This document shows, one piece after another, positions 11,088 through 62,219 of a DNA stretch of 64,000 nucleotides; position 1 is the first letter of the stretch, and the number at the start of each line of letters is the position of its first letter. Origin of the DNA: a virus. Taxonomy: Duplodnaviria; Caudoviricetes. The translations under genes and the position numbers were made by a program. Under the pieces are notes generated by a model, which saw nothing but the letters and a program-made list of their open reading frames with translations, did no database searches and was not told where the DNA came from. Where the stretch lies: positions 1 to 64,000 of IMG/VR virus record IMGVR_UViG_3300033075_000428. The stretch is one strand, 5' to 3'.

Positions 11088-13051
11088 CGTTGAGTGGTAT
11101 TATCGTAAACAAGTACCACAACACTGTCTGCTGCAAACGCTAGGTCAGCACCTGAGCCAGTGATGATACGATTCGCTGCTGTGGAGTTAGCGTTCTGGTT
11201 CGCCAGCGTCATTATCTGACCAGAACGATTTGCGAGTAGGATATATCTACCGTCTGCAACGTTTGTTATACCACGGATGGTAAATCCTGCTGTTGGTCCA
11301 GTCACACGAATGAATACTGCATCAGGGATATTGATATTATCTTGGACACCATTTACTGCAGTAAATCCAGCTGCAGTGAATCTAACTTGCTGGTCAAGTA
11401 ATGTTCTCTTGGTATTCCAGATACCAGTTTGTCCAACATTCACTTTAATACCAACTCCAGTGGAGGAACCGCCTTCTACCAGTACCGCAGTGCCACCAGT
11501 ATTCGCATTGATGAATGTGGCAGTGGCGTATGAAGCTGCTGAATTCTGACAGTAGATACCCTTTGTATCTGTAGCACCACCATCTTGACTTTGGTCGTAC
11601 ATGAACGCACAGGCACTTCCACCACTAGAAGAACCAGTTAACTTAGCATTGAATGCGTACCCATTCTTATGCGCTGCGAAAACTGCAGCAGTAGCACTTG
11701 CACCAAATGTTGCTGTGAATGACGCTACTGAGTTTCTCGCTGTAGCTAACAATGCGTAGGTATTATTAGTTCCGTTGTCAGTTGAGGTAACTTCAAAGAT
11801 GGCAACTGCTGAGTTTACATTGGTAGCGGTTGTTATTTTCGCATAGATAGCATTTGCAACGTTTGCACCAGAAGGGGAACCAGTATTCTCAAAATAGGAT
11901 GTAGGGAAAGAAGCTGTTGCGCCTGCTGAAATACCTACCACAGCACGAGAGCTCAACGTTGCAGCATCTGCATAGAGTGCGTCTTTGTTAGAACCTGTTG
12001 TCTTAGCGTAGACGCCATAGCCAGATGATTCGCCATACACACCATATCTATTTGTGCCTGCGCTTGCTAATCCGAAGACTCCATATGCTGTGGTTCCACC
12101 GCCGATGTTCGCTCCATAAACTCCGTAAGTAGTTCCTGAACCACCATCAGCATTACCATAAACACCATAAGTGGCACCAGTACCGTGAACACCATAAGAG
12201 CCTGCGTTATTACCGTCAGCTTGTACCCCATGTGAACCCCCTGAACCATAGACACCGACATTTGAAGAACTTGACCCGTACACTCCATAAGCAGTTCCTG
12301 AGAAGTAACCACCACGAGCACCGCCGATACCTTCGAAAGCATAAGCACTCAAGCCACTGGTATTCGATGAGACACCTTTTGCGGCTGCATTACTAGCAGT
12401 AACATATATTCCATAGGTAGCACCTTCAGCATATACCGCTGTTGAACCAGAGGAAACAGCGTGCACACCACGTTGAGAACCTTCAGCCTTTATCCCATAA
12501 CCGTTTGAGCCTGAATTCACAGCCCAAATTACAGGCACGAAATCGGCAGAACCAGTAGCCTTAATAGAAGGTGAACCACCAGCACCCGCTGTATTAGTGG
12601 CTTCAATCGCAAATGTTCCTGCTCCTGTCCCCCCGCTTGAGAAGAACCCTGCAGAACCAGAGCCACTGTAAGCTACAATTGCAGTTTGAGTATTTGAAAA
12701 ACTAGTCGAGCCTACATATAACGTTGGTAAGCTATCTCCACTCAGCCAGTTCAACTGGATATGTCCACTTGAACCGTACGCTTTCATGCGTGTGGAAAAC
12801 TCAAGACCGCTTGGAGTGTTGTTTACATGTACAAAGTAACCGTTGTTAGCAGTGTACGTAGTAGGGTCAGTGTCAGATAATTCGAGGAAAGAGTTTGCAA
12901 GAGTCTTCCAAGCAGTGCCATTCCAGTAGTATGGTAAACTGTCTGTGGTTAAGAATGCAACAGTACCTTTGTGTTGCGTGGAAAGAGTTCCACTCAACGA
13001 GGTAATGTTGTGCAACCTTGCTTGCTCTAGTTCAACGAAGCTAAACTGCAT
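11069..13051 (-). CDS. Gly/Ala-rich fibre-like structural protein (GVYG repeats, beta-solenoid-like)
   Basis: Many YGVYG/GVxG repeats; C-terminal ITGSGADL..VVLVYDNTTQRW typical of phage fibre ends. Confidence 0.7.
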   Translation of the reverse strand: MQFSFVELEQARLHNITSLSGTLSTQHKGTVAFLTTDSLPYYWNGTAWKTLANSFLELSDTDPTTYTANNGYFVHVNNTPSGLEFSTRMKAYGSSGHIQLNWLSGDSLPTLYVGSTSFSNTQTAIVAYSGSGSAGFFSSGGTGAGTFAIEATNTAGAGGSPSIKATGSADFVPVIWAVNSGSNGYGIKAEGSQRGVHAVSSGSTAVYAEGATYGIYVTASNAAAKGVSSNTSGLSAYAFEGIGGARGGYFSGTAYGVYGSSSSNVGVYGSGGSHGVQADGNNAGSYGVHGTGATYGVYGNADGGSGTTYGVYGANIGGGTTAYGVFGLASAGTNRYGVYGESSGYGVYAKTTGSNKDALYADAATLSSRAVVGISAGATASFPTSYFENTGSPSGANVANAIYAKITTATNVNSAVAIFEVTSTDNGTNNTYALLATARNSVASFTATFGASATAAVFAAHKNGYAFNAKLTGSSSGGSACAFMYDQSQDGGATDTKGIYCQNSAASYATATFINANTGGTAVLVEGGSSTGVGIKVNVGQTGIWNTKRTLLDQQVRFTAAGFTAVNGVQDNINIPDAVFIRVTGPTAGFTIRGITNVADGRYILLANRSGQIMTLANQNANSTAANRIITGSGADLAFAADSVVVLVYDNTTQRWLVIA

Positions 13052-13058
13052 TGTCTAC

Positions 13059-13634
13059 TTACTGTGTCTTTCTCTGTGTGAGTAGGGCATCAATTTTACT
13101 GATGACTACTCTTGCGTCGGTTAATTCTTCTGGTTCTTTCTTCTTGCCAAGAACCTTACTCACTTCTTCCGTTCCTGCTGGTGCTGGGTGTCCATCTTCG
13201 AATGAAGTCAAATCACCCTTGTAGTCTTCGGGTTTTCCCCATGCATGTGGGTTGTTTGGATAAGAACCCATATTTCCACTTGTCGTCATCTCGTCAGCGG
13301 CAACCATAGCATCGTTCTTCCAAACTTCTTTTCCCTTACTATTGAACACAGAAACAAACTGTGTCTTTGGAATTGACTTCAGAATCCATGCACTCGTTGG
13401 TTCATCTGTGTTCTTCACAATCGAGTTCTTTGGAACAGAAACAGCGAACACCCAAGTGCCAAGCTCAGGGAAAGTCCGTAGTGTCTTGAGAATGAACTTC
13501 AATGAGTACCAAGCTTGTAGTGGATTAGTCTTCGACACACCTTTCATTCCGATGTTCAACGTTGCTTTGAACGAGTTGAACGGAACGTAGAGAATGTAAT
13601 TACTCTCGTTATTTGGGTCTACTTGTGGTCTCAT
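13059..13634 (-). CDS. Hypothetical protein
   Basis: 191 aa ORF. Confidence 0.7.
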   Translation of the reverse strand: MRPQVDPNNESNYILYVPFNSFKATLNIGMKGVSKTNPLQAWYSLKFILKTLRTFPELGTWVFAVSVPKNSIVKNTDEPTSAWILKSIPKTQFVSVFNSKGKEVWKNDAMVAADEMTTSGNMGSYPNNPHAWGKPEDYKGDLTSFEDGHPAPAGTEEVSKVLGKKKEPEELTDARVVISKIDALLTQRKTQ

Positions 13635-13661
13635 TATTCTTCTTTGGTTATAAATTCAAAG

Positions 13662-14360
13662 TTAATAGTCACGTTTTTGATACTCATCTGATATCATCTC
13701 TGGTATCACTTCCTCAATATAATTCTTCACAAACTCCTTAATAATCTTCGTATTGAGTTGATTTAAAGGTACTCGAGTTTTGCGGTTAAACGCTTTATTT
13801 GCTGTAAACACCTTGCTGCCTTTGAGTTGTGCATATTGTTTATTAATATCAAACTCTGGGTTTAGAGTAAGAGGTTGTTTCCTATCAAGACAGTTTTTTA
13901 ATACTATCTCTAAAGTGAACTCAAAATTCAAATCAATAAACTTTTCTCGAACATTTTCAGAATTCACCACCCAAAAAGTTGCTGTGAATGTACGTATATA
14001 GGTGCCAACAACTGTCCCAGTTGAATCAGGGTTAACTGGTGGTAAGTAATTACCGCCTACTCTACCAAGTATTTTAAAAGTAACAGTCAAGTCTTTAGGC
14101 AAGTTTGGAATAGAAGATAAATCTAAATCTGTTAGTAACTTCCGAACGAAAATGGTACCACCAAAAGATTTTTGAATTAAATAGGGTATAGAAGAAAAAT
14201 TAGAAAGCTGGTCAAGCTGTCCATATACTATTTTGCCGATATTTTCTCTATTATTCCCGTCTTTATCAGTCGATTGAGATTTACCTTCAGATAGTAGCTT
14301 TGAAGCAATATCTTCTGTGGTTAAAGATGACTCAACTAGGGTCTTGATGTCGTTATTCAT
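13662..14360 (-). CDS. AT-rich hypothetical protein with putative cleavable head-targeting leader
   Basis: Visibly lower GC; N-terminus KTLVESSLTTEDIASKLLSE. Confidence 0.7.
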   Translation of the reverse strand: MNNDIKTLVESSLTTEDIASKLLSEGKSQSTDKDGNNRENIGKIVYGQLDQLSNFSSIPYLIQKSFGGTIFVRKLLTDLDLSSIPNLPKDLTVTFKILGRVGGNYLPPVNPDSTGTVVGTYIRTFTATFWVVNSENVREKFIDLNFEFTLEIVLKNCLDRKQPLTLNPEFDINKQYAQLKGSKVFTANKAFNRKTRVPLNQLNTKIIKEFVKNYIEEVIPEMISDEYQKRDY

Positions 14361-14380
14361 AGGATGTTTCCTGTGTTCTT

Positions 14381-14839
14381 TTAGTTTGTGAATTTGCGAA
14401 CGAACTTCATTAGGAAAGTTGCAACAAAGAGCTTCTCAAGTCCCTTGGCAAACTGTGATTTCTGGATTGGTTTATCTGGCACAATGTCCATGAACCGTAT
14501 ATAACCATTGATGACCTGCTTGTCTGGCTGGTCTTTCATGCGTCCTGCAAAGATGACAAGTTCTACACCACGGTCTTTCCCAATTAACTTGGTGATGTTC
14601 CACTCCTTCTTGTCTGGGAGACCATAGGAAACTGTTGCTCTTTTGGATTTCTTTGTAGTTGGAAGATTGGTGTCCCCACCTTCGTCACCACCAATTGGCT
14701 CATCTTCTGCTTCACGGATTACTTTCTCTATCAACGAACTGACTTGCTCTTGAAGTTCTTTGATTTGCTCTTCAGTTGTCATTGTTTTCACTTGTAAATC
14801 TGATTGTTGACAAGATGGTGCGCACTGCTTGTTGCGCAT
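14381..14839 (-). CDS. Hypothetical protein (start probably MTTEEQ)
   Basis: ORF; LIEKVIREA motif. Confidence 0.65.
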   Translation of the reverse strand: MRNKQCAPSCQQSDLQVKTMTTEEQIKELQEQVSSLIEKVIREAEDEPIGGDEGGDTNLPTTKKSKRATVSYGLPDKKEWNITKLIGKDRGVELVIFAGRMKDQPDKQVINGYIRFMDIVPDKPIQKSQFAKGLEKLFVATFLMKFVRKFTN

Positions 14840-15869
14840 CTGACTCTTTGAGTAAGTTGTGAAGCTCAGGAATCATCGAAGCATTCTGCTGTCGACCAAA
14901 ATGCTGTATTTGACGTAGCCTAGCATCAGCTTCTTCTTTCGTGTCATAGCAACCGAACTTACGTTTGCTCTTGTGGCTGATTACACAGAACTGTCCTTGA
15001 CGCTTGACTACCTTCTCGTTCATTGATGGGTCAATCATCTGTGATGCAATCAAGTACGCTGTTTTCCAGAAACGCTTTGGCGTTGGGTCACCAGCTGGGA
15101 ACACGTTTTGTCCTGAGTAGGACTGTGCTGGATAGTTATCAGCATCTGCCAGTTGTTCCTGCCCTTGTTGAGTCTTCGCTAAGCGTATGAACTCTTCAGG
15201 GGTTCCACCTTGACCTAAGAAAATCTCAACTGCTTGACGTGCATGTGCTGTAATTTCAGCTGGGTCGGAGAAGTAGATTTGCCAGAATCTATTGGTCTGA
15301 CCCTCACTTTGGAGTACTGAGTTGTAGTACTTGTCAGTGAACTTGTTCTTCGATGCCCACATCTTCATTTCCTGATACACATGAGTATACTCATGCTTAA
15401 TAACAGGAATGAGTTGCTCTTTCACAAACTTCAGCCAAAGTAACTTTGGGTCATCTTGCTCCAGGAACATCTGGAAGAACGCGTACGTTGAGAAATTGAT
15501 AATCAACGTATACTTTGGGGGTCCATCAGGCTGTGGCTTCACTCGTGTAAACGCTTGGTCAAACCAGTGTGTGAAGTTGTTTGGTTTTTGAAGGTCTTCA
15601 TCTTCAGCATCCCACGTAGAGACCAATTGAAAGTCCAATGGGAATGACTCACGAAATACATACTCTGGACTCATCATGACTTTGAGTACGTAATTCAGGA
15701 ACATCAGACCATAGTTCTCGATTTTCGTAGTCGTCACAGCACGCTTGGTACCAACGTAGTCTTGCATTGGCTGTGACACCAGAATCTCTATCCCAGCATT
15801 GATGAATCCCTGTTCCTCAGCTTTCAGATTCGGAACTGGAATGACTCCTTCTTTCAATTGGTCTTGCAT
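14772..15869 (-). CDS. Zincin-like metallopeptidase-domain protein
   Basis: IKHEYTHVYQ (HExxH) plus downstream YFSDPAEITAH. Confidence 0.65.
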   Translation of the reverse strand: MQDQLKEGVIPVPNLKAEEQGFINAGIEILVSQPMQDYVGTKRAVTTTKIENYGLMFLNYVLKVMMSPEYVFRESFPLDFQLVSTWDAEDEDLQKPNNFTHWFDQAFTRVKPQPDGPPKYTLIINFSTYAFFQMFLEQDDPKLLWLKFVKEQLIPVIKHEYTHVYQEMKMWASKNKFTDKYYNSVLQSEGQTNRFWQIYFSDPAEITAHARQAVEIFLGQGGTPEEFIRLAKTQQGQEQLADADNYPAQSYSGQNVFPAGDPTPKRFWKTAYLIASQMIDPSMNEKVVKRQGQFCVISHKSKRKFGCYDTKEEADARLRQIQHFGRQQNASMIPELHNLLKESDAQQAVRTILSTIRFTSENNDN

Positions 15870-15967
15870 GCTCTGGAATGAGATTAGTTTACGACTTCCC
15901 TACAGTAAGAAAACTGCCAAGGGCAAACAAGTTACCACTTGGCAGTAAATCTTTTGTTCACTTTGAT

Positions 15968-17308
15968 TTAGTCTACCAACTTGAATCCTTCAGTCTTGCA
16001 CATCTCTGTGATGCGAGACTTAGCTTTTCCGTCGATACCATACTTGAATTCCTTCAAGAGGACACCGTTGTCATTGTAAAGGTGAAGTGTCGCTGGATTC
16101 TCATCGTTCAGCGTACCTTCTGTGTACACCTTTACAGTGTAACCGTCTTCACTTTGGAATTTCGTCAAAGTGAATTCGTTGTTGGACTCGTTCATGTTAC
16201 TCTTTCTTTGATTACTGTGACGTGACTCTTTCAAGTCCTTAAGCTTCCACACAAGTGCTTGTGGATTGTCAGCACCACCGAAGAGGAAAGTAACAAATGC
16301 TAGTTGCTTTCCTTCCTTAGTTTGCTGATTCTTCATTATCTTACCGAGTTCGTCTTCAAGCGACCATGTCGTGAGCTTCAGCTTCTCACGGTTCAACTCA
16401 ATGTGCTTCTCTGCTTCTTCCTTTGGAACAGTCATGTTAGCAGTTACTGTGTGAACCACTGGTTCTTCTATTTCTCCCTTTTCGTCTTTGTAGTACGCAA
16501 GGAGACTAAAGACTAGGTTCACAGTAGCTTCATCATCTTTAATGAACGGCTTATTGACTGATACCTTTGGTTTCTTCGTTGGAAGATTTGTTTTCGTGAA
16601 TCCACCGCCCTTTTGGTAGTTCTTCATAATGGTATCAACACCCATTACAAGCTCACCAGCTGGCTTCTTACTTCCACCAAACAAACCTTCTTCCAAAGAC
16701 TCTCCCTTGATGAGCTCCTCAAACGTGTCCTCGTCTTCAATTAGCTCACCATCATTTGGCATGACCTTCAGGTCTTCAATGAGGTATTCCTGCCATCCTT
16801 CAATGTCATGAGGATGTTTTACCCAACCGTCTTCGAAGAATGTATCGTCTTCACTATCTGGGTATACAAAAGAGAACACTTCTTTACGATTCTCGTCCTC
16901 AACGTGCATCCTGAACTCACCACGCTCGTCAAGGTCTACACAGAACAGGAAGTACTTGCCTTTGGCTTCTGCTTCAGTCATTGAACTATTGATTTTCTTA
17001 TCCAGTTCAAGATAACGCTCAACTGCTCCCTTTGCGTCTTGCATTGGGAATTTATTCTCGCTTCCACTCCGTCCTTTTACTGAAATCGTACCATCTGGAG
17101 AAATGTAGAAGTCATTACTTTGGTAGGTAACATCAAGAACTACCGTTTGTGGGTCTTGACTCCCAGTTAATGTCCCACCAACACCTTCAAGTCCATGTCT
17201 TTTAAGAGCTTTGGTCAAAAGTTGAATTGCTTCAACCTGTTCATCTGTTTGTGCTAGTCTGAGTAGGTTCATTTTGCCAAGTATATAGTTTCTGTTGGAG
17301 TTCCACAC
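15968..17308 (-). CDS. Multidomain hypothetical protein, possible processed head protein
   Basis: 446 aa; segments separated by MTEA, LEEG, LKES and MNES motifs. Confidence 0.7.
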   Translation of the reverse strand: MWNSNRNYILGKMNLLRLAQTDEQVEAIQLLTKALKRHGLEGVGGTLTGSQDPQTVVLDVTYQSNDFYISPDGTISVKGRSGSENKFPMQDAKGAVERYLELDKKINSSMTEAEAKGKYFLFCVDLDERGEFRMHVEDENRKEVFSFVYPDSEDDTFFEDGWVKHPHDIEGWQEYLIEDLKVMPNDGELIEDEDTFEELIKGESLEEGLFGGSKKPAGELVMGVDTIMKNYQKGGGFTKTNLPTKKPKVSVNKPFIKDDEATVNLVFSLLAYYKDEKGEIEEPVVHTVTANMTVPKEEAEKHIELNREKLKLTTWSLEDELGKIMKNQQTKEGKQLAFVTFLFGGADNPQALVWKLKDLKESRHSNQRKSNMNESNNEFTLTKFQSEDGYTVKVYTEGTLNDENPATLHLYNDNGVLLKEFKYGIDGKAKSRITEMCKTEGFKLVD

Positions 17309-17374
17309 AATGGAAGCTTGTCCAGATATTAAGACTATCTAGACAGTTCAAAATAGCGTCGTTCAGACTAGGTG

Positions 17375-18316
17375 TTAAACTAGTCTGTTGCCCATGATTT
17401 TCTTGTTGATGACGTCGAACTTTCCACCGTCTTCCATTATGACGTCAGCGAACCCATGGTTCCAGTTGTTATTAGGAGCATAGTAGGGGTTTAGGTCACA
17501 AAGGCAACCCAATGACCAACCACCCATAACGGAGCCGCGAATGCGCCTAGAAATGTCCTCAGTGGAACGATGGAAGTGGTTTACGAGGATGTTATCGTTG
17601 GCCTTTAGGCGCATTGTTCTTGCGATGTTGATAAGTCCAGGAGCACTGTAGAACTCATGACCGTGGACGATGTTCAACTTACCAAGTAGGATGGTGCGTC
17701 GGTCATTCACATACTCGATACCCAATTGAGGAAGTTCCAAAAGCTCTTCCAACTTGAACGCTTTCACATTGAAGAACTCTGGAGCCTTTGTCCAGATGAA
17801 GTGCTGATAGCGTTCTTCATGATTACCAACCTTGAAAATGATTCTTGCATTTGGCAAGAAGTCACGTATCTGGCGTAGCAACTTTACTGTGATGTTCAGT
17901 TCTTTGGCGAAATCACGGTTGTCTGGACGGTTCACGAACTTGCTCATCGAGTGACAGTCCATGAAGTCACCGTTGATGATTAAGCAATCCGTGCCAACCA
18001 GTTTGGCATACCGAAGTGCTAGAGTAAGTGCTTCAACAGTATGATACGGAGCGTGAACGTCTCCAATGACGATAACACGATTTACGTTGTTGACCTTATA
18101 GGGCTGAAAGGTCTTTTGCTCACTCTTGACAAGGTTCAAGCTTAGTTCGTTGAACGTTGTTTCGTCAAGGTTCTTCGCTCCTGAATACTTGGTCAGCACT
18201 TCGCTGATGCTGAGCTCTTGTTTCCTAAGCTTCTCTAGTAACTCTTTCTCTGATTCAGTGACTACTATTCTAGAGTTTGTATTAGGCTTACTTGTTTTCG
18301 CCAAGGTGTCACCCAC
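17375..18316 (-). CDS. Calcineurin-like metallophosphoesterase
   Basis: GDVH, NGDFMD, GNHE, HGHE and HFH motifs. Confidence 0.9.
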   Translation of the reverse strand: MGDTLAKTSKPNTNSRIVVTESEKELLEKLRKQELSISEVLTKYSGAKNLDETTFNELSLNLVKSEQKTFQPYKVNNVNRVIVIGDVHAPYHTVEALTLALRYAKLVGTDCLIINGDFMDCHSMSKFVNRPDNRDFAKELNITVKLLRQIRDFLPNARIIFKVGNHEERYQHFIWTKAPEFFNVKAFKLEELLELPQLGIEYVNDRRTILLGKLNIVHGHEFYSAPGLINIARTMRLKANDNILVNHFHRSTEDISRRIRGSVMGGWSLGCLCDLNPYYAPNNNWNHGFADVIMEDGGKFDVINKKIMGNRLV

Positions 18317-18422
18317 TCGTTGTTTACAATGTAGCTTTCTCTCATATATCGAGAGTAATATACAGTGAAACGATAACTAGTGGCGAATTGATTCTAACAT
18401 TACAGAGCTAAGTTTTGTGGAT

Positions 18423-19073
18423 TCATTTGCTTAGTGCTTGAACAATACTCTTGGCCTTTTCGGGAGTGACCTCAAGATTGAACTCAATTGTATTGTCCAA
18501 TCGCTGTAGTATTGTTAGTTGGTGCTGTTGAAACTTCTTTGTTTCACGATACATTTCTGCTGACATCAGTTTCTGCTTGTGTATTATGTCTTTCAAACGA
18601 ACGTATTTCTGCTCTTTCGTTGTTCTGACACGGTCAAACTGCTTCCGCAAGTTCTCTTGGTATTCGTCGGTCAAGAGCAGGAATTCGTCTATCCTTGACT
18701 GGAACTTCGCTATTGTACAGTGTGTGTTTATCAATATTCGATACATGTGAATGATGTGTACACTTGCGCTACGCTCAAGTCTTGCTTGAGTAAGAATCTG
18801 AGCCTTCATGGGGTTGTTGTCTTCCAACTTGTCAGCCCACTCAATCCGCTTCTTGAAAGAGAGAGTTAACTTATCAATCACCACTCGGTGGGTGTGAATG
18901 TGCTCTCGTGCAGGAGAGAGTTCTAGCAACCGTATATACACATGCTGTAGCAATTCGATATTGCGTCTTCGATAGTCATTCTCAGTCAGTTCTCTTAACT
19001 TCAATAATAGAACCTTGTCAGTTGGATGACAATCTTGTTCCAGTTCAGGTAGGCTCTTTCTCATAACTCTCAC
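18423..19073 (-). CDS. Hypothetical helical protein
   Basis: 216 aa ORF. Confidence 0.65.
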   Translation of the reverse strand: MRVMRKSLPELEQDCHPTDKVLLLKLRELTENDYRRRNIELLQHVYIRLLELSPAREHIHTHRVVIDKLTLSFKKRIEWADKLEDNNPMKAQILTQARLERSASVHIIHMYRILINTHCTIAKFQSRIDEFLLLTDEYQENLRKQFDRVRTTKEQKYVRLKDIIHKQKLMSAEMYRETKKFQQHQLTILQRLDNTIEFNLEVTPEKAKSIVQALSK

Positions 19074-19088
19074 GTCAATTGGGTTAAG

Positions 19089-19125
19089 ACAAAATCTCCA
19101 GACTGTCTTTTGAACAGTCTGGAGA
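19089..19125 (-). terminator. Intrinsic terminator
   Basis: 12-bp perfect inverted repeat TCTCCAGACTGT/ACAGTCTGGAGA then TTTTG on minus strand. Confidence 0.75.
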
Positions 19126-19306
19126 CAGCAGCATAAAGAGAGTTCGTGAAACGAACTAGGGGGTTATTCCATTCTCATCCACTCCGTTTGTAACAATACC
19201 TTCCGCATGGTGACGGAATAGGTGATTTGTAAAACACATTCAAAGGACAAAGTGGGTCGGGAATCAAATTGGGGTCAAGAAACATAGGTGCGTGTTTTCT
19301 AGCGCA

Positions 19307-19708
19307 TTACCATCTGATAATTGATTCGTATACTGGCTTGATTTCAAACGGTGTCACCAGTATCTTTACAATGTCTTCAGGACAGTCGTAGTCCTTGTGA
19401 CCACCATGAAGGCGATCCGAGCTATACTTATCAAATGACTCTTGTGTGACGCTTCCGTCTTTCCACCAGCAAGACCATGAATCTTGAAATACGTAATTCA
19501 TCTGCACATACTCTTTGTTGAACATCCTACACCCATATATTCTACTAGAAGGGATGTCAATCCAAATTGGTTCAAGGGGTACCCGTTTGATTCCTTTTGT
19601 GATTGGGAGAGACCTTTGTTCTTCACGCTTGTCTCTCAATTCTTGCTCAAGAGCAGCTATCCACTCTTCCAATTTCTCGTACTTTTGTATCAGTTCATCG
19701 GATACCAT
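19307..19708 (-). CDS. Hypothetical protein
   Basis: 133 aa ORF. Confidence 0.7.
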   Translation of the reverse strand: MVSDELIQKYEKLEEWIAALEQELRDKREEQRSLPITKGIKRVPLEPIWIDIPSSRIYGCRMFNKEYVQMNYVFQDSWSCWWKDGSVTQESFDKYSSDRLHGGHKDYDCPEDIVKILVTPFEIKPVYESIIRW

Positions 19709-19730
19709 GACATGCTCTTAGTTTGGTTAG

Positions 19731-19815
19731 TACACCAGAACGGACTCGAACCGTCACGACACTTACGTGTCAGGGGATTTTAAGTCCCCTGCGTCTGCCA
19801 TTTCGCCACTGGTGT
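19731..19815 (-). tRNA. trnL: tRNA-Leu(UAA)
   Basis: ACACCAG/CTGGTGT acceptor, GGGGA-CTTAAAA-TCCCC anticodon arm, long variable arm, GTTCGAGTC T loop; no encoded CCA. Confidence 0.93.
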
Positions 19816-19823
19816 CTTAGACA

Positions 19824-20156
19824 TCAATCGTAGTTGATGACTTGCTCAATGTTAGAAACCATCGTGCCCTCATAAGGTACACCTGGTTCCGTCTTGACAA
19901 GATTGATTTTGGAAGTTACTTCGTCAGTGCTTGTTTCATCACTAAACAAGACTTCAACGTGGTCGAGCGTTCCCTTTGTTCCCTTGCGCCAAGTGAAGTA
20001 CTCCATGGTAATTCCACTTGGAATGTTCAGTGCACGGATTGACTCCGTTACCATTTGCAGAGTGAGCTTCTCCTTGTTCTTGTCGCAGTTGTCCAACAGT
20101 CCGAGAACTGTTGTTGAAAACTCACGTTCAGCCGTATCAATTGGCCTTGCGTCCAT
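19824..20156 (-). CDS. Hypothetical protein between two tRNA-Leu genes
   Basis: 110 aa with AGGAG SD. Confidence 0.7.
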   Translation of the reverse strand: MDARPIDTAEREFSTTVLGLLDNCDKNKEKLTLQMVTESIRALNIPSGITMEYFTWRKGTKGTLDHVEVLFSDETSTDEVTSKINLVKTEPGVPYEGTMVSNIEQVINYD

Positions 20157-20209
20157 GCTGTACTCCTGAAATTATTGAAAGATAGACTCTAGGATAAGAG
20201 TCTAATACG

Positions 20210-20291
20210 TACTCACAGCGAGAGTCGAACTCGCACGGATTTCTCCACTAGCTCCTAAGACTAGCGTGTCTGCCAATTCCACCATGTGAGC
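20210..20291 (-). tRNA. trnL: tRNA-Leu(UAG)
   Basis: GCTCACA/TGTGAGT acceptor, CTAGT-CTTAGGA-GCTAG anticodon arm, variable arm, GTTCGACTC T loop. Confidence 0.93.
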
Positions 20292-20308
20292 TACTTTATT
20301 GAAGGGAG

Positions 20309-20614
20309 TTATGCGCTTGGTGCTGAGAAGGGTGGTTCAGAGTTTTCGTTGCTATCCCTAGAAGCTAGGACACCTTCATGAAACGCTCTAAAGTTGGCTT
20401 CAAATCTATGAAGGAACGCTTTGTATAGTATCTCCTTTATGCGTTCCCCTGACTGAACCAACTTGTACTCACCGTTACCACGGGATACCATTATCGCTTG
20501 CATGCTTTCTGATTCATGAATCAGAACATCCTCTTGTGGTACTGTGACGAGGACGGGATTATTGAATCTGAGAAGGTCTAGATTCAGGACTTCAATTACA
20601 GTATCTGCTTGCAT
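20309..20614 (-). CDS. Hypothetical protein
   Basis: 101 aa ORF between Ro60 and tRNA. Confidence 0.65.
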   Translation of the reverse strand: MQADTVIEVLNLDLLRFNNPVLVTVPQEDVLIHESESMQAIMVSRGNGEYKLVQSGERIKEILYKAFLHRFEANFRAFHEGVLASRDSNENSEPPFSAPSA

Positions 20615-20665
20615 GTTATGCTCAGAGTGTATGTGTTAGAAAATGGAGAGAACGAGTTGGAAAGC

Positions 20666-22096
20666 TTACTGAGCAGATGCGTCATAAGCGGTTTCGAGTT
20701 GCTCAGCTACTTCCAAACCTTCATAGGCACGGATGTAGTCAAGGAACTTCTCTGACCAGCCACTGATTTCAGCTGTCCACACACCCTTGTAGTTAATGCC
20801 CTTTGCGTGTGCAGAAACATCAATAATGTAGTTCCGAGTGCCGAATGGGTTTGGCGTCTTGTTCACACGGTCACAGTCTTGGCTGTCAGAGAACACCAAG
20901 ATGCGGTCGACAGCTTCACCGTTCAAATCCTTCTTGATGTACTCAAGTGCTTGACGGGTGAAGATTCCGCCACCACCAAGTTTTCTTGATTTGTTCTCCA
21001 GCAATTCTGCCAATGCAAATCCACGAGTTGGAGTCACACGTTCGGTGTTATGAGTTCCTGCGTGGTCTTTGCCAGCAGTTGCATATACTGTGATGTTCTC
21101 ACATTGTTCACAAGCGAATACAGCCAATGCGATTGCAGCATCTTGCCGTGTCAACTGTGACTTGCTTGAAATTGCAGCACCCATGCTTCCTGAAAGGTCG
21201 ATGACCACCACGGTGTGACCCTTGATTTTCTCAACCGACTGGAACATCTTGAACATTGCTTCCTCAATCTCCCGTGCATATTTTGGTTGTTGCTTGTATG
21301 CAGAGTAGAAGTTCAATGGGAGTAGCCATTGATTGGAAACGTTGCGGAGTGCGTTCTTGATAATAGTACGGCTAACGCCAGCCTTCTCCATGTTGTTCAA
21401 GTTGCGCAACAGTGCCAGACCACCCAACTTGTTCTCGTTGAGCAAGCGAGTCCAAGAAGCTGTCTTGTCCTGTGAAGCAGACAATTCAACTTCCCAAGTG
21501 TCAGGAGTCTCAAGCTTGTTGTCTGCTACACGCTTGAATAGGTCTTCTTGAATCTTGTTCTGTGGCTTTGGGTGCACGAGGAACATGATGTCACGAAGGG
21601 TAACAGTCTTGCCATCGCCACGATACTTCGCCAAAGAGTACTCATTGAACTTCAGGAAGCAATTGGCAAGTGCACGTTTCACGGAAGCTGGCACAGGAGA
21701 TTTCTTGGTGTCACCCCAGTACAAAGCCATGAAGTCTGACATCTGGTCTGGACGCGTAATGATTGCTTCCAACACACGCTGTACATGCTTTTTGTGCTCA
21801 GGGTAGAGAAGCATCTCACGTGCGATGAACAGAGGCATGTGGCGAAGCTTCTGTTGGAGTCGGCATTCAATTGCCAAGTCAGCACAATCCTTTGCGTCAA
21901 CTTTCGGAATCAGTTCCTGAACCTTTTTGGCGTTGGCACTACCCGTGGTATATGCAAGGTCTTCCCACAGTAGGGAAGCCAGCACACAGCGACGAAGTTC
22001 GTCAAGCATAGATTGCTTTGCGGAACCCATCCCACCTGGGAGTGGATTCTCATTGTCAAATCGTTCGTCTTTCTTCTTCGGGTTAAGCTTGGACAT
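20666..22096 (-). CDS. rsr: Ro60/Rsr-family RNA-binding protein (TROVE + vWA)
   Basis: LRHMPL, RPDQM, KFNEYSLAKY, LRDIMFLVHPKP, LETPDTWEVELS, ALLRNLNNM, MIDAS IDLSGSM, VFSDSQ and C-terminal ISGWSE motifs. Confidence 0.93.
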   Translation of the reverse strand: MSKLNPKKKDERFDNENPLPGGMGSAKQSMLDELRRCVLASLLWEDLAYTTGSANAKKVQELIPKVDAKDCADLAIECRLQQKLRHMPLFIAREMLLYPEHKKHVQRVLEAIITRPDQMSDFMALYWGDTKKSPVPASVKRALANCFLKFNEYSLAKYRGDGKTVTLRDIMFLVHPKPQNKIQEDLFKRVADNKLETPDTWEVELSASQDKTASWTRLLNENKLGGLALLRNLNNMEKAGVSRTIIKNALRNVSNQWLLPLNFYSAYKQQPKYAREIEEAMFKMFQSVEKIKGHTVVVIDLSGSMGAAISSKSQLTRQDAAIALAVFACEQCENITVYATAGKDHAGTHNTERVTPTRGFALAELLENKSRKLGGGGIFTRQALEYIKKDLNGEAVDRILVFSDSQDCDRVNKTPNPFGTRNYIIDVSAHAKGINYKGVWTAEISGWSEKFLDYIRAYEGLEVAEQLETAYDASAQ

Positions 22097-23644: not shown

Positions 23645-23941
23645 TTAGTTGTTCTTGGTGTCTACAATCTCACCACGACTGAGACGATAGTGGTAGAGAT
23701 GAGCAAAGTCTTTTAGTAGATACCAATTGTTTTCCGTCACAGGACAGAAGCCGTAGAGTATCTGATTCTCATCATTGTCTTTAATGAGAGCAAATTGCCT
23801 CACACCAGCTATCAAACGATAGATGATTTGGTACTTAAGTTTCCATGAGTCTATCTCATCAGGCACATACCCACCAGCGTTCAGTGTTGAAATCTTTGGG
23901 TCAAAGTAGGGTTGCCAGTGTATGCTGTTGTCCATTGTCAT
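23645..23941 (-). CDS. Hypothetical protein
   Basis: 98 aa, ATGA overlap with def. Confidence 0.65.
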   Translation of the reverse strand: MTMDNSIHWQPYFDPKISTLNAGGYVPDEIDSWKLKYQIIYRLIAGVRQFALIKDNDENQILYGFCPVTENNWYLLKDFAHLYHYRLSRGEIVDTKNN

Positions 23942-24639
23942 CTCCTCACAGGCAGGTCTGACAGATACTGCTCCAAGCTACGGCTAGGAAACTCTCTGAA
24001 GAAGTTGTGAGTGCGTTCATTCTCATATAGTCTACGAGCATGCTTAGATACTCGTTGAAGCTTTGGTCGTAGTAGTATCTTCTGAGTTTCTTCTACTCGG
24101 TCGAAGAAGTACAATCCATTGAGATGGTCAACTTCGTGTTGGATGATTCGTGCGTTCATGTTTTGAAACACACCGTCACATTCTTCAAAGAACTCGTTAC
24201 GGTATGTAACACGTATTCCATTGTGCCTCTTGACTGGTGCCGTGACTGTTGAATGTCCAATAGCCACACGAACTGACATGCAACCCTCAATGTCAAAAGA
24301 CGTCTCGTCAGAATACTCTACAATCTTTGGATTCAACAAAGTGCGCACAGTAGGACGTTCTGCTTCTTGGTCGCGAATCATAATGATTGAGTATCGTGAA
24401 CCAACTTGATTGGCAGCTAATCCAACACAACTACGTTGTGTACGAATTGTCTCAAACATTGAACGACAGAATTCTTGAACGTTCTCATTAATCTCAACAA
24501 CATCTTGAGATTTAAGCCTCAACGTTGGATGGTCATACAACACAATATTTCTTGCTGAGGGAAATTTTGATTTACCTTCAACTCGTGTAAAAACAGAAAG
24601 CCTATCAGTTTCTTGCAGTCGAAGTGGTATTGCTTCCAT
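23938..24639 (-). CDS. def: Peptide deformylase
   Basis: GLAANQVG, EGCMS and QHEVDHLNG signature motifs. Confidence 0.95.
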   Translation of the reverse strand: MEAIPLRLQETDRLSVFTRVEGKSKFPSARNIVLYDHPTLRLKSQDVVEINENVQEFCRSMFETIRTQRSCVGLAANQVGSRYSIIMIRDQEAERPTVRTLLNPKIVEYSDETSFDIEGCMSVRVAIGHSTVTAPVKRHNGIRVTYRNEFFEECDGVFQNMNARIIQHEVDHLNGLYFFDRVEETQKILLRPKLQRVSKHARRLYENERTHNFFREFPSRSLEQYLSDLPVRR

Positions 24640-59690: not shown

Positions 59691-60335
59691 TTACTTGAAG
59701 ACTTTACTGAGGAAGAACTTTCTGACCAACTGCTCGTCGAGACACTCCATTGTCTTGCGCCAGTTCACGATGTTCGTCAATCTTGGTTCAGCACACGCTG
59801 TACCGTATACCCACATGAACCCTTGAAACGAACGTATCCCATACGAACCTAGTTCAACAAGTTCAAATTCCTTCGACGGTGGAACGTTCACCACAGCACA
59901 GATGTCGTAGCCATTTCCTTCGTCGTTTTCAACAATGTCACAGTCAACGTACCGACGAAAGAATTCCAATGCTGATTTCATCACCAGTTCCAACTCAGCC
60001 ATTGCAGTAAGCTCATTCACTGCAGAAGAAATCAGTTCATTCTTGAGGAAGTACTTCGTGTGCAGGAAGTCGAATGATTCTTTCCGAAAGCAGGGTGTCA
60101 CCGTCTGGAACCGTCCTTGGGGCAAGAACCCTTTGGACTGCAAGTAAAGGAACGACTGTTCACCCGACGCAACTAGGACTTTCCCGTCAGGGTGAACGAG
60201 TTGAAAGTCTTCTCGGTCAGAGGGTTTCGTGATGGCAGAGATTGCCTTCGTAACAGTCCAAGGGCTTTCGATTCTTGTGTACCCAATGTTCGTAAAGAAC
60301 TCAATAGAGTCCTGAATCTTTTGATAGTCAATCAT
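59691..60335 (-). CDS. Stand-alone class II aminoacyl-tRNA-synthetase-like catalytic domain
   Basis: Motif1 GYTRIESP, LVASGEQ, motif2 TPCFRKE...F.K.E, ELGSYG, motif3 GTACAEPR; no anticodon-binding domain. Confidence 0.75.
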   Translation of the reverse strand: MIDYQKIQDSIEFFTNIGYTRIESPWTVTKAISAITKPSDREDFQLVHPDGKVLVASGEQSFLYLQSKGFLPQGRFQTVTPCFRKESFDFLHTKYFLKNELISSAVNELTAMAELELVMKSALEFFRRYVDCDIVENDEGNGYDICAVVNVPPSKEFELVELGSYGIRSFQGFMWVYGTACAEPRLTNIVNWRKTMECLDEQLVRKFFLSKVFK

Positions 60336-61239: not shown

Positions 61240-61282
61240 GCGAATACAAAAATCCCCACAGTGCGTTACCAAAGTGGGGATT
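61240..61282 (-). terminator. Intrinsic terminator closing the Y-RNA array
   Basis: AATCCCCAC/GTGGGGATT hairpin then TTTGTATTCGC on minus strand; preceded by a second hairpin at 61294-61319. Confidence 0.7.
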
Positions 61283-61341: not shown

Positions 61342-61468
61342 TTCTAACAGGAACAGTCGCTAACGGAAATTAAGTGCTCTACCAACTGAGCTACAAGCAA
61401 TTGCTCGCTTGACAGGACTTGAACCTGCGACAAAAGGAGAAGTATCCGTTGGCTACACCATGTTAGAA
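61342..61468 (-). ncRNA. Y RNA (YrlA-like) copy 1 with circularly permuted tRNA domain
   Basis: UUCUAACA/UGUUAGAA terminal stem; UGGUGUAG..AUACUUC; T arm GCAGG-UUCAAGU-CCUGU; closed acceptor CAAGC/GCUUG; D arm UAGCUCAGUUGGUAGAGC; 3' CUGUUCCU. Confidence 0.85.
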
Positions 61469-61475
61469 TCGTTGT

Positions 61476-61505
61476 GTTTTCAAACGTACTGAAATCAGTA
61501 CAACA
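61476..61505. repeat. Array spacer copy A (GTACTG/CAGTAC hairpin + TTTGAAAAC on minus strand)
   Basis: 25/30 identical to 61673-61702; four of five differences lie in the loop. Confidence 0.8.
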
Positions 61506-61522
61506 GACACTCAATAAATAAC

Positions 61523-61663
61523 CCTGTAGGAACAGGCGTTGACGGGCTTTTGTGACCACTTGTTTTGCCAGTTAAACTACAAGATTATAGAAATCTTGGA
61601 AGGATTTGAACCTTCAATCAGCGGTTTTTTGTTACGAAGTAACCGTTAACTACACCATACAGG
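61523..61663 (-). ncRNA. Y RNA (YrlA-like) copy 2 with a different permuted tRNA domain
   Basis: CCUGUA/UACAGG terminal stem; same core motifs; T arm GAAGG-UUCAAAU-CCUUC; acceptor CAAGAUU/AAUCUUG; D arm GUUU-AACUGGCA-AAAC; residual stem ACCGC/GUGGU. Confidence 0.85.
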
Positions 61664-61672
61664 TATCATTGA

Positions 61673-61702
61673 GTTTTCAAATGTACTGTTGACAGTACAA
61701 CA
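61673..61702. repeat. Array spacer copy B
   Basis: GTTTTCAAATGTACTG-TTGA-CAGTACAACA. Confidence 0.8.
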
Positions 61703-61718
61703 AGCAGTCAAAAATAAA

Positions 61719-61788
61719 ACCGACAGGAACAGGCGTCTACGGGTTGTGGTTCATAACGTGAAGTAACCGTTGACTACACCATGTCAGT
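61719..61788 (-). ncRNA. Minimal Y-RNA-like copy 3 (no tRNA domain)
   Basis: ACUGACA/UGUCGGU stem; UGGUGUAG-UCAACGG-UUACUUC...CCGUAGA-CGC-CUGUUCCU. Confidence 0.75.
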
Positions 61789-61789
61789 C

Positions 61790-62113
61790 TTACTTGGGGG
61801 TATCCGAGGGACGAATGGTTACGTTGGCAGCGTTGATTGTTACTTCATTCGCTGTTGCCGCAACTCCTGGTACATAGTTTGTACCAGTCAATGTGTCGTT
61901 GTTACTAGTTCCTGAGCTCTTAGTGCCCGTATCACCAGAGGTGATGACGTCAAGTGCCATGAAGTTGAATTCATGCTGTGCAGGATAGTTCTCTTGAAAC
62001 CAGACACAAACACACATACCATTTGGACGGATATCATTCACCGTCATGCTTGGGCTTCCCGTCTTCAGACGGACGATGTCTCCAATTTTCACGCTGTCTG
62101 TTGTAACAAGCAT
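61790..62113 (-). CDS. YodC/DUF2158-like small protein with low-complexity tail
   Basis: KIGDIVRLKTGSPSMTV...CVCVWF...F...AL. Confidence 0.75.
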   Translation of the reverse strand: MLVTTDSVKIGDIVRLKTGSPSMTVNDIRPNGMCVCVWFQENYPAQHEFNFMALDVITSGDTGTKSSGTSNNDTLTGTNYVPGVAATANEVTINAANVTIRPSDTPK

Positions 62114-62144
62114 GTCTCAATCCAAATTTCTGTTTTAAAAATGA

Positions 62145-62219
62145 AAGCGGCTAGGAACAGACGCAAGTAGGTGATTTCGTGCAAATGTGAAGTAACCCAC
62201 CGCTACACCATAGACGCTT
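62145..62219 (-). ncRNA. Minimal Y-RNA-like copy 4 (no tRNA domain)
   Basis: AAGCGUCUA/UAGCCGCUU stem; UGGUGUAG-CGGUGGG-UUACUUC...CCUACUUG-CGU-CUGUUCCU. Confidence 0.75.

What the first reader, a model, noticed from the sequence alone, without database searches (positions are those of the whole stretch)
19731..22096. Jumbo-type phage Ro60 gene beside tRNA-Leu genes, with its candidate Y RNAs about 39 kb away
Seen: an intact TROVE+vWA gene (MIDAS DLSGSM) just upstream of tRNA-Leu(UAG) and tRNA-Leu(UAA). The copies of the core motif I found lie at 61.3-62.2 kb, not next to it, and no rtcB/rtcA is in the window. Established: bacterial rsr is usually adjacent to its Y RNAs and often to RtcB RNA repair genes, and Rsr/Y RNA can tether PNPase for structured-RNA decay. 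Ro60/YrlA is known from some phages, so the parts are not new. Inference: a dispersed phage Ro60-RNP system with several interchangeable RNA adaptors, possibly countering host anticodon nucleases or redirecting host RNA decay. Neighbourhood-based searches would miss it.
Basis: partly seen in the sequence, partly recalled or inferred. Interest (0 to 1): 0.85.

Follow-up and report, generated by a model that had tools for sequence, protein, structure and literature searches.

The report
Phage Ro60 gene split from Y RNAs
A 190-kb uncultured phage has an intact gene for the RNA-binding ring protein Ro60, but its four partner "Y RNA" genes lie 39 kb away instead of next to it; this is a known phage protein-RNA particle in an unusual, though not unique, gene layout.

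Summary
ORF 20666-22096(-) encodes an intact Ro60: TROVE domain, vWA domain with DxSxS MIDAS, and a predicted fold whose best 13 PDB matches are all Ro60. It is followed tightly by ORF101, tRNA-Leu(UAG), ORF110 and tRNA-Leu(UAA).

The only Y-RNA-like genes in the complete 190,353-bp genome are four on the same strand at 61343-62216, two YrlA-type with a tRNA-like module and two short. They lie 39.2 kb upstream.

The same RNA family lies within 1.5 kb of the Ro60 gene, on the same strand, in 45 of 52 IMG/VR phage loci. Named phages carry adjacent arrays of 2-9 copies. So the pairing is well supported, and several adaptors per phage is normal.

The separation is rare but not unique: Ralstonia phage RsoM2USA (4.8 and about 30 kb) and probably Vibrio phage Va1 (about 20 kb).

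The genome has no RtcB, RtcA, Rnl2-type RNA ligase or PNPase, so an RNA-repair or anti-anticodon-nuclease role has no support. Neighbouring tRNAs are common at phage Ro60 loci and are rarely Leu.

The scan already reported the array itself on this window (e1-5748075) and Ro60-like/handle-RNA arrays in other phages.

Verdict: a new member of a known kind, of modest interest.

The parts
20666..22096 (-). Ro60 (Rsr) orthologue, 476 aa: TROVE HEAT-repeat ring plus vWA domain with MIDAS DLSGS (residues 300-304)
   Evidence: Pfam TROVE 4.1e-17 and VWA_2. phmmer to 9KOP/9L5Y at 1e-15. AF2 model pLDDT 81, and the top 13 Foldseek PDB hits are all Ro60. It is the only TROVE gene in the genome.
20309..20614 (-). 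ORF of 101 aa, unknown family, between Ro60 and tRNA-Leu(UAG)
   Evidence: ORF list. No Pfam or PHROG hit. No homologue in 174 fetched loci, mostly Ro60 neighbourhoods.
20209..20291 (-). tRNA-Leu(UAG)
   Evidence: ARAGORN; Rfam tRNA 52.1 bits.
19824..20156 (-). ORF of 110 aa with an AGGAG ribosome-binding site, unknown family, between the two tRNA-Leu genes
   Evidence: No Pfam or PHROG hit. No homologue in the other fetched loci.
19730..19815 (-). tRNA-Leu(UAA)
   Evidence: ARAGORN; Rfam tRNA 53.9 bits.
62147..62216 (-). Y1: short Y RNA (YrlB-like; handle only)
   Evidence: Model R1 61.3 bits, R2 43.1 bits; shared handle.
61790..62113 (-). DUF2158 small protein gene (107 aa) embedded between Y1 and Y2
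   Evidence: Pfam PF09926 3.6e-9; PHROG 3261 1e-12.
61719..61788 (-). Y2: short Y RNA
   Evidence: R1 70.1 bits, R2 55.8 bits.
61522..61664 (-). Y3: long YrlA-type Y RNA with a tRNA-like module (T arm, closed acceptor-like stem, D arm)
   Evidence: R2 101.9 bits. Rfam YrlA partial hit 26.5 bits. Covarying consensus structure.
61343..61467 (-). Y4: long YrlA-type Y RNA with a tRNA-like module
   Evidence: R2 113.8 bits. Rfam YrlA RF02553 full-length match 41.6 bits, E 3e-7, below the gathering score of 69.
61245..61280 (-). Likely intrinsic terminator closing the array: CCCCAC...GUGGGG stem followed by a U run
   Evidence: Read from the sequence. The consensus scanner missed it because the loop is long.
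61486..61501 (-). Spacer hairpin (GUACUG..CAGUAC) between Y3 and Y4. A near-identical copy lies at 61683-61698 between Y2 and Y3. This is a trace of tandem duplication or a processing site.
   Evidence: Apart from one unrelated GTACTG..CAGTAC palindrome near 129.3 kb, the only copies in the genome are these two; the extended spacer motif (TGTTGTACTG; GTACRTTTGAAAA) occurs only here.

Best explanation
Gene 20666-22096(-) encodes a functional phage Ro60 ring protein. Its RNA partners are most likely the four Y RNAs at 61.3-62.2 kb, made from a separate transcription unit 39 kb upstream on the same strand, which assemble with Ro60 in trans.

Shown:
- The protein is an intact Ro60 by sequence and by predicted fold.
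- The four RNAs belong to the YrlA/YrlB-type family. Its conserved handle (R-UGG-Y-G-N-AG ... NUACUUC ... UGUUCC) and covarying stems sit directly beside Ro60 genes in dozens of other phages.
- These four are the only such RNAs in this genome, and this is its only Ro60 gene.

Inferred by analogy with Deinococcus Rsr/Yrn1/PNPase and Thermus phage phiLo Ro60/Yrl/PNPase:
- The handle binds the outer face of the Ro60 ring.
- The variable part (a tRNA-like module in Y3 and Y4, a simple loop in Y1 and Y2) gates the ring or tethers a host enzyme, most likely a 3'-5' exoribonuclease such as PNPase.
- This redirects decay or processing of structured RNA during infection.

The layout is a rearranged version of the usual adjacent module, not a new system. 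The tRNA-Leu genes are ordinary phage tRNA genes that share the Ro60 transcription unit.
For: - Ro60 identity. It is the single TROVE gene.
- RNAs: four copies, found only at 61.3-62.2 kb. Rfam YrlA gives sub-threshold hits on Y4 and Y3. The consensus structures covary strongly: 23 of 32 pairs in the long form and 12 of 17 in the short form carry compensatory changes.
- Co-occurrence, RNA to protein: the 5' handle pattern hit 22 IMG/VR contigs, of which about 17 are real Y-like RNAs. Twelve have a TROVE gene in the same short locus and two more have one within 1 kb.
- Co-occurrence, protein to RNA: 39 of 52 phage loci with intact Ro60 relatives have a same-strand hit within 1.5 kb. Six more do by whole-record search. 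So do 18 of 25 long metagenome loci.
- The closest Ro60 relative found (69% identity) has two such RNAs immediately upstream.
- Handles next to the nearest Ro60 relatives match the handle here.
- Dispersal has precedents: RsoM2USA has Y pairs 4.8 and about 30 kb from its Ro60, inside tRNA clusters. Va1's only YrlA-like hit is about 20 kb from its TROVE gene.
- The two loci have the same base composition as the rest of the genome.
- Known biology: PMC4201824 and PMC12135203.
Against: - There is no expression or binding data.
- No close genomic relative of this phage could be found, so it is unknown whether the split layout is conserved or recent.
- Rfam's YrlA model does not reach its gathering score on any of the four RNAs.
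- The 5' motif is GGUGUAG, not the published GNCGAAN0-1G.
- The exoribonuclease partner is pure analogy. The phage encodes no PNPase and the host is unknown.
- Part of the co-occurrence evidence is circular, because the models were trained on hits chosen by the handle pattern.
Confidence: 0.75

Rival explanations
1. The two loci are functionally uncoupled. The Y-like RNAs act on their own as tRNA mimics, for example as decoys or sponges for host tRNA-targeting nucleases or tRNA-modifying enzymes. Ro60 would then work on other RNAs, such as misfolded transcripts or the tRNA-Leu precursors co-transcribed with it.
For: - The loci are 39 kb apart, and the array has its own terminator.
- Y3 and Y4 carry full T-arm/D-arm mimicry.
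- Ro60 proteins are known to bind misfolded RNAs without Y RNAs (PDB 2I91 and 9NEP appear among the fold matches).
- Ro60 sits in one tight unit with two tRNA-Leu genes. The same two Leu isoacceptors flank Ro60 in Rhizobium phage RHph_Y65.
Against: - The conserved part of all four RNAs is the handle, not the tRNA-like part, and Y1 and Y2 lack the mimic altogether.
- That handle is found beside Ro60 genes almost everywhere else.
- In RHph_Y65 four Y RNAs also sit beside Ro60.
- tRNA-Leu is not enriched near Ro60 overall: 1 of the 58 ARAGORN tRNA calls within 2 kb.
- The tRNA-Leu sequences of the two phages are not specially alike.
Confidence: 0.1
2. It is an RNA-repair or counter-defence module: Ro60/Y RNA works with RNA ligation to rescue tRNAs cut by host anticodon nucleases, comparable to the bacterial rsr-yrlBA-rtcBA operon.
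For: - In Salmonella, rsr and the Y RNAs are part of the RtcR-controlled rtcBA operon (PMC7790460, listed).
- Jumbo phages often carry RNA ligases together with ROT/TROVE proteins (PMC7824862).
- A calcineurin-like phosphoesterase gene lies 2.3 kb downstream of Ro60.
Against: - The complete genome has no RtcB and no RtcA.
- Its only PF09414 hit is an ATP-dependent DNA ligase.
- The Rnl1 search was negative, although its control genomes were also silent.
- The Metallophos hit is generic (E 2e-7), and no homologue of that gene was found in any other fetched Ro60 locus.
Confidence: 0.07
3. The separation is not biological: the contig is a chimeric assembly, or one of the two parts is a decaying remnant after rearrangement.
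For: This is a metagenome-assembled record, and no read-level check was possible. One other contig (L108) does carry a frameshifted Ro60 remnant without any Y RNA.
Against: - The record has direct terminal repeats and is rated 100% complete.
- GC content and tetranucleotide use are uniform across both loci.
- Nearly all large ORFs lie on one strand.
- The Ro60 ORF keeps every column that is invariant in 32 homologues.
- All four RNAs score 43-114 bits and keep the invariant handle.
Confidence: 0.05

Closest known systems
Bacterial and phage Ro60 (Rsr) with YrlA/YrlB Y RNAs (Chen et al. 2014, PMC4201824; Rfam RF02553)
   Same: - TROVE+vWA ring protein.
- At least one Y RNA with a tRNA-like domain in the order T arm, closed acceptor-like stem, D arm, plus shorter YrlB-like RNAs.
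- RNAs on the same strand as the gene.
- The 5' motif GGUGUAG grades through GGCGUAG (CcrPW) into GGCGAAG (Mvi-JY20). That last form is the published GNCGAAN0-1G motif.
   Different: - The RNAs are 39 kb from the gene, whereas the paper found nearly all within 4 kb and reported only those.
- Rfam's model scores them below its gathering score (41.6 against 69 bits).
- There is no rtcBA.
Thermus phage phiLo Ro60 with Yrl1/Yrl2 and host PNPase (PMC12135203; PDB 9KOP, 9L5Y)
   Same: - It is the best sequence and structure match of the protein.
- It is a large phage of 178 kb.
- It has several phage-encoded Y-like RNAs.
- It relies on a host exoribonuclease, because the phage encodes none.
   Different: - The phiLo RNAs lie just upstream of the gene.
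- They have a CGAA-type motif and are not detected by the models built here.
- Protein identity is only about 22%.
Adjacent Y RNA arrays of Caulobacter phage CcrPW (9 copies), Xanthomonas phage Olaya (5), Rhizobium phage RHph_Y65 (4), Brevundimonas phage Papperlapapp (4) and Microcystis phage Mvi-JY20 (2)
   Same: - They carry the same RNA family, with long and short forms mixed in tandem on the Ro60 strand.
- tRNA genes are often next door.
- RHph_Y65 even has tRNA-Leu(UAG) and tRNA-Leu(UAA) flanking the module.
   Different: In all of them the array directly adjoins the Ro60 gene. Here it is 39 kb away and has a DUF2158 protein gene inside it.
Ralstonia jumbo phage RsoM2USA (MG752970) and Vibrio phage Va1 (MK387337)
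   Same: - Both have a split layout in large phages.
- RsoM2USA has long+short Y pairs 4.8 kb and about 30 kb from its Ro60 gene on the same strand. Its Ro60 is 42% identical to this one.
- Va1's only detected YrlA-like RNA is about 20 kb from its TROVE gene.
   Different: - In RsoM2USA the Y RNAs sit inside tRNA clusters, and one pair is still fairly near the gene.
- None of these RNAs is annotated in the records.
- The Va1 handle is degenerate, so its case is tentative.
Deinococcus radiodurans Rsr/Yrn1/PNPase (RYPER)
   Same: This is the working model for function: the Y RNA tethers the Ro60 ring to an exoribonuclease for decay of structured RNA.
   Different: - The order of tRNA-like elements in Yrn1 differs.
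- It is a bacterial stress response rather than a phage infection.
- No binding data exist here.

Membership tests
Ro60 / Rsr (TROVE2) proteins | TROVE (HEAT-repeat ring) domain | tested here: met
   Pfam PF05731 E 4.1e-17, 62.9 bits against a cut-off of 23; whole-genome scan.
Ro60 / Rsr (TROVE2) proteins | C-terminal vWA domain with a MIDAS motif (DxSxS) | tested here: met
   VWA_2 at 24.3 bits, slightly under its cut-off. D300-L-S302-G-S304 are invariant among 32 homologues. The alpha/beta vWA fold appears in the model at residues 291-445.
Ro60 / Rsr (TROVE2) proteins | Overall ring fold like solved Ro60 structures | tested here: met
   Foldseek top 13 PDB hits are all Ro60: 9KOP E 4.4e-20, TM 0.69; 1YVP; 2NVO; 9NEN.
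Ro60 / Rsr (TROVE2) proteins | Binds Y RNA through the conserved stem | not testable with these tools
   Needs pull-down or EMSA. It is only inferred from co-occurrence.
YrlA/YrlB-type Y RNAs | Stem formed by the 5' and 3' ends, carrying a conserved 5' motif (published: GNCGAAN0-1G) | tested here: inconclusive
   The stem with a bulge and internal loop is present and covaries. The motif here is GGUGUAG, two substitutions from GNCGAAG. It grades into GGCGUAG and GGCGAAG in other phages detected by the same model.
YrlA/YrlB-type Y RNAs | tRNA-like domain (T arm, closed acceptor-like stem-loop, D arm) in at least one RNA per genome | tested here: met
   Y4 aligns to Rfam YrlA across model positions 1-114, and Y3 across 26-82. 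T, acceptor-like and D helices covary in 13 sequences.
YrlA/YrlB-type Y RNAs | Reaches the Rfam RF02553 gathering score | tested here: not met
   Best score 41.6 bits against 69. The Rfam seed is dominated by bacterial sequences with a different handle.
YrlA/YrlB-type Y RNAs | Encoded within about 4 kb of the Ro60 gene on the same strand (the operational criterion of Chen et al. 2014) | tested here: not met
   The strand is the same, but the distance is 39.2 kb. Nothing lies within 6 kb of the gene with filters off.
rsr-yrlBA-rtcBA RNA repair operon | RtcB ligase and RtcA cyclase encoded with rsr | tested here: not met
   No PF01139 or PF01137 match in the complete genome, and the control genomes were positive.
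Phage RNA-repair sets (Rnl1/Rnl2 with Pnkp) | An RNA ligase of the Rnl1 or Rnl2 type | tested here: not met
   The only PF09414 hit is an ATP-dependent DNA ligase (DNA_ligase_A_M plus OB domain). The Rnl1 search was negative, but its controls were silent too. Pnkp was not tested.

The most novel reading that the evidence does not exclude
Large phages treat Y RNA genes like tRNA genes and scatter them. In this phage the split could allow Ro60 and its four adaptors to be expressed at different times or amounts. Ro60 is made in one unit with two tRNA-Leu genes, while the array is a separate, terminator-closed unit. The RNP's specificity could then be switched during infection, or the Y RNAs could have an additional Ro60-independent role as tRNA mimics. 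A recurrent link between Ro60 and the tRNA-Leu(UAG)/tRNA-Leu(UAA) pair, seen here and in Rhizobium Cuauhnahuacvirus phages, would then point to class II tRNAs as clients.
Probability: 0.12. Interest if true: 0.6.

Novelty: new member of a known kind. Interest (0 to 1): 0.3.

Why it matters
Phage Ro60/Y RNA particles are known but poorly understood. This case adds two practical points.

First, Y RNA genes need not be next to the Ro60 gene. Three large phages now show separations of 20-39 kb. Surveys that accept only hits within a few kb, as the 2014 reference survey did, will under-count Y RNAs and may wrongly list some Ro60 genes as lacking a partner.

Second, the complete genome has Ro60 and four Y RNAs but no RNA ligase, RNA cyclase or PNPase. 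The phage particle therefore cannot be part of a self-contained repair operon and must work with host enzymes.

Neither point changes the accepted picture of how Ro60 works.

Tried and rejected
- Extra Y RNAs near Ro60: an Rfam E-value scan of 18.5-23.5 kb and filters-off scans with both models over 15-27 kb gave nothing.
- Close relatives of the phage, to test whether the split is conserved: none was found by megablast, by MCP peptide patterns, or by MCP tblastn, where the best hit is 38%. The best Ro60 relatives are 64-69% identical and sit in unrelated genomes. A metagenome scan gave only relatives of 55% identity or less.
- RNA ligase lead: the PF09414 hit at 127.5-128.8 kb is a DNA ligase.
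- aaRS-like ORF 59691-60335, 1 kb from the array: the weak Pfam tRNA-synt_2 hit has no PDB or NCBIfam support. The protein does belong to a phage family that RefSeq labels 'histidyl tRNA synthetase' (276 records), but most of those phages lack Ro60, so it was rejected as a specific partner.
- Conserved protein partners: none of 16 neighbouring ORFs recurs in 174 fetched loci, mostly Ro60 neighbourhoods, apart from that one hit.
- Second Ro-like protein next to the array: there is no TROVE or DUF2828 hit (the DUF2828 control was silent), and no ORF of 350 aa or more lies between 46.9 and 75.4 kb.
- Shared ancestry of the Ro60-linked tRNA-Leu pair with Rhizobium phage RHph_Y65: the tRNA sequences share only universal tRNA-Leu positions.
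- Sigma-70 promoters: none was convincing at either locus.
- Spacer hairpins: they are local to the array, not a genome-wide promoter motif.
Full report
**What is in the sequence**

The window is the first 64 kb of a 190,353-bp IMG/VR virus record with direct terminal repeats, rated complete. The phage has a T4-like gp23 capsid protein, portal and prohead protease. It has no close cultured relative: the best capsid-protein match is 38%. Nearly all large ORFs lie on the minus strand.

ORF 20666-22096(-) encodes 476 aa. Several lines show it is an intact Ro60:
- Pfam gives TROVE at E 4.1e-17 and VWA_2 just under its cut-off. PHROG 850 'RNA-binding protein' also matches.
- phmmer aligns residues 26-465 to the solved Ro60 of Thermus phage phiLo at E 1e-15.
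- In an alignment with 31 homologues of 50-64% identity, the protein keeps every invariant column, including the MIDAS residues D300, S302 and S304.
- The AlphaFold model (pLDDT 81) has as its 13 best PDB matches only Ro60 structures from phage, frog, human and Deinococcus.
- It is the only TROVE gene in the genome.

Downstream on the same strand, with gaps of 8-52 nt, come a 101-aa ORF, tRNA-Leu(UAG) at 20209-20291, a 110-aa ORF, and tRNA-Leu(UAA) at 19730-19815. The upstream ORF ends 17 nt before the Ro60 start. The gene therefore sits in a long, tightly packed unit.

**The RNAs**

Four elements on the minus strand share a 5' AUGGUGUAG-N5-GG-N-UACUUC and a 3' CG-N-CUGUUCCU:
- Y1, 62147-62216, short
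- Y2, 61719-61788, short
- Y3, 61522-61664, long
- Y4, 61343-61467, long

Y3 and Y4 contain a T arm, a closed acceptor-like stem and a D arm. Rfam's YrlA model aligns Y4 end to end at 41.6 bits (E 3e-7), below its gathering score of 69.

Exact-motif and covariance-model searches of the whole genome find only these four. Filters-off scans find nothing within 6 kb of Ro60. The nearest element, Y4, is 39.2 kb from the Ro60 start codon, upstream on the same strand.

A DUF2158 gene lies between Y1 and Y2. Duplicated spacer hairpins separate Y2/Y3 and Y3/Y4. A G+C-rich hairpin with a U run follows Y4.

**Is the distant array really Ro60's partner?**

*From RNA to protein.* The 5' handle pattern hit 22 IMG/VR contigs. 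About 17 of them are genuine Y-like RNAs with the matching 3' half, and often with a tRNA-like module. Twelve have a TROVE gene in the same short locus. Two more have one within 1 kb, including a 341-kb phage with five Y RNAs. The two without a TROVE gene are fragments rated 16% and 22% complete.

*From protein to RNA.* Alignments of long and short forms gave consensus structures with abundant compensatory changes, and from these I built two covariance models. The survey of intact Ro60 relatives gave:

| Set | Result |
|---|---|
| 52 IMG/VR loci | 39 with a same-strand hit within 1.5 kb |
| Same 52 loci | 6 more adjacent, by whole-record search |
| Same 52 loci | 5 with the nearest hit at 2.4-4.4 kb |
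| Same 52 loci | 2 fragments with no hit |
| 25 metagenome loci with long flanks | 18 with an adjacent hit |

Named phages show adjacent arrays: five copies in Xanthomonas phage Olaya, nine in Caulobacter phage CcrPW, four in Brevundimonas phage Papperlapapp, four in Rhizobium phage RHph_Y65 and two in Microcystis phage Mvi-JY20. The closest Ro60 relative recovered (69% identity) has two directly upstream. One contig with only a frameshifted Ro60 remnant has no Y RNA at all.

The protein and this RNA family therefore travel together, and the pairing here is a strong inference. One caveat applies: the models were trained on sequences picked by the handle pattern, so part of this evidence is not independent.

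**How unusual is the separation?**

Chen et al. 2014 state that nearly all best matches were within 4 kb of Ro60 on the same strand, and that only such hits were reported. That survey would have missed this array.

In my survey, no IMG/VR or metagenome locus had its nearest hit beyond about 4.4 kb. However, whole-genome scans of named phages gave two further split cases:
- Ralstonia jumbo phage RsoM2USA, whose Ro60 is 42% identical to this one, has long+short Y pairs 4.8 kb and about 30 kb from the gene. They are embedded in unannotated tRNA clusters.
- Vibrio phage Va1 has its only YrlA-like hit about 20 kb from its TROVE gene. The Va1 handle is degenerate, so this case is tentative.

The layout is rare but recurrent in genomes of roughly 190-340 kb. 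Base composition is uniform across both loci here, which argues against a chimeric contig.

**What the system probably does**

The genome has no RtcB, no RtcA and no RNase PH/PNPase domain. Its only RNA_ligase-family hit is an ATP-dependent DNA ligase. The Rnl1 search was negative, but its controls were silent as well.

The Salmonella-type repair-operon reading and the anticodon-nuclease counter-defence idea therefore have no support from gene content. The most likely mechanism is the generic one: the handle binds Ro60, and the variable module recruits or gates a host exoribonuclease. This has been shown for Deinococcus and, in vitro, for phage phiLo (PMC12135203). That step is inference.

**The tRNA-Leu neighbours**

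tRNA genes lie within 2 kb of Ro60, always on its strand, in 27 of 52 phage loci. Only one of the 58 ARAGORN tRNA calls within 2 kb is Leu, and some of those calls may be Y RNA modules. Being next to tRNA genes is thus typical, and Leu is not.

One coincidence remains unexplained. In Rhizobium phages of genus Cuauhnahuacvirus the order is tRNA-Leu(UAG), four Y RNAs, TROVE, tRNA-Leu(UAA). Mvi-JY20 also has a tRNA-Leu just upstream of its Ro60. The tRNA sequences share only universal Leu features with those here, so I treat this as an observation, not as evidence.

**Relation to published motifs and earlier scan notes**

The scan already reported the array on this window (e1-5748075) and called its handle apparently undescribed in print. 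My comparison shows the handle varies continuously: GGCGAAG in Mvi-JY20, GGCGUAG in CcrPW, and GGUGUAG here. The first of these is exactly the published GNCGAAN0-1G motif. According to PMC12135203, a Caulobacter phage (CcrColossus) was among the phages in which the 2014 paper identified Y RNA-like ncRNAs; its relationship to CcrPW was not tested here. I therefore regard these RNAs as YrlA/YrlB family members with a drifted motif that Rfam's model under-scores. Other scan notes describe Ro60-like (DUF2828-type) proteins with adjacent handle-RNA arrays in other phages; all of those arrays are adjacent.

**Verdict**

It remains a known kind of particle in a rearranged layout that has precedents, and its proposed anti-defence role is unsupported. 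Interest is modest.

Noticed in passing
L043:6074-6232 (Bacteroides phage crAss001, NC_049977, in the unannotated 0.9-kb gap downstream of its TROVE gene): This is a tRNA-shaped RNA with an open acceptor stem, a D arm and a T arm. Its anticodon arm seems to be replaced by a closed, permuted Ro60 handle (UGUUCC, a loop, then UGGUGUAG..UUACUUC). That is the reverse topology of YrlA. Two short handle-like RNAs lie just before it. The fold is plausible but not statistically distinct from shuffles.
   Followed up: partly
MG752970.1 49.8-50.1 kb and 75.2-75.5 kb (L193, L194; Ralstonia phage RsoM2USA): Two unannotated pairs of long+short Y RNAs sit among unannotated tRNA genes, 4.8 and about 30 kb from the phage's Ro60 gene, which is annotated 'hypothetical protein'.
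   Followed up: partly
NC_070967.1 138306-141279 (L195; Rhizobium phage RHph_Y65), and likewise MN988560.1: The order is tRNA-Leu(UAG), four Y RNAs, TROVE, tRNA-Leu(UAA). These are the same two Leu isoacceptors that follow Ro60 in this window, although the tRNA sequences are not specially similar.
   Followed up: partly
window 59691-60335 (-): This 214-aa ORF, 1 kb downstream of the Y array, belongs to a family of small class II aaRS-like phage proteins. The family is found in 276 phage records, and RefSeq often labels it 'histidyl tRNA synthetase' although it is about half the size of HisRS. Most carriers are tRNA-rich phages without Ro60.
   Followed up: partly
L108:10001-10361 (IMG/VR contig of 138.7 kb): A frameshifted C-terminal remnant of a Ro60 gene, 74% identical to this one at the protein level, sits in an otherwise unrelated phage contig that has no TROVE domain and no Y RNA hit.
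   Followed up: partly
L062 (IMG/VR contig of 305.8 kb), locus 11513-20260: Six Y RNA hits are spread over 9 kb downstream of Ro60, interleaved with 17 tRNA genes. This is an intermediate between adjacent and dispersed layouts.
   Followed up: no
window 17375-18316 (-) and 23938-24639 (-): A calcineurin-like phosphoesterase gene and a peptide deformylase gene flank the Ro60/tRNA-Leu unit at 2-3 kb.
   Followed up: no
G000 102347-102765 (-) and 106618-106691 (-), outside the window: ARAGORN calls a tmRNA-like gene and a tRNA with anticodon CUA (amber suppressor type). The suppressor tRNA is already covered by other reports of this scan.
   Followed up: no
L057, L061, L067, L068, L070, L075 (IMG/VR Ro60 loci): ARAGORN 'tRNA' calls lie 52-89 nt from the Ro60 ORF. 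They probably include tRNA-like modules of Y RNAs rather than true tRNAs, so tRNA counts near phage Ro60 genes are inflated.
   Followed up: no
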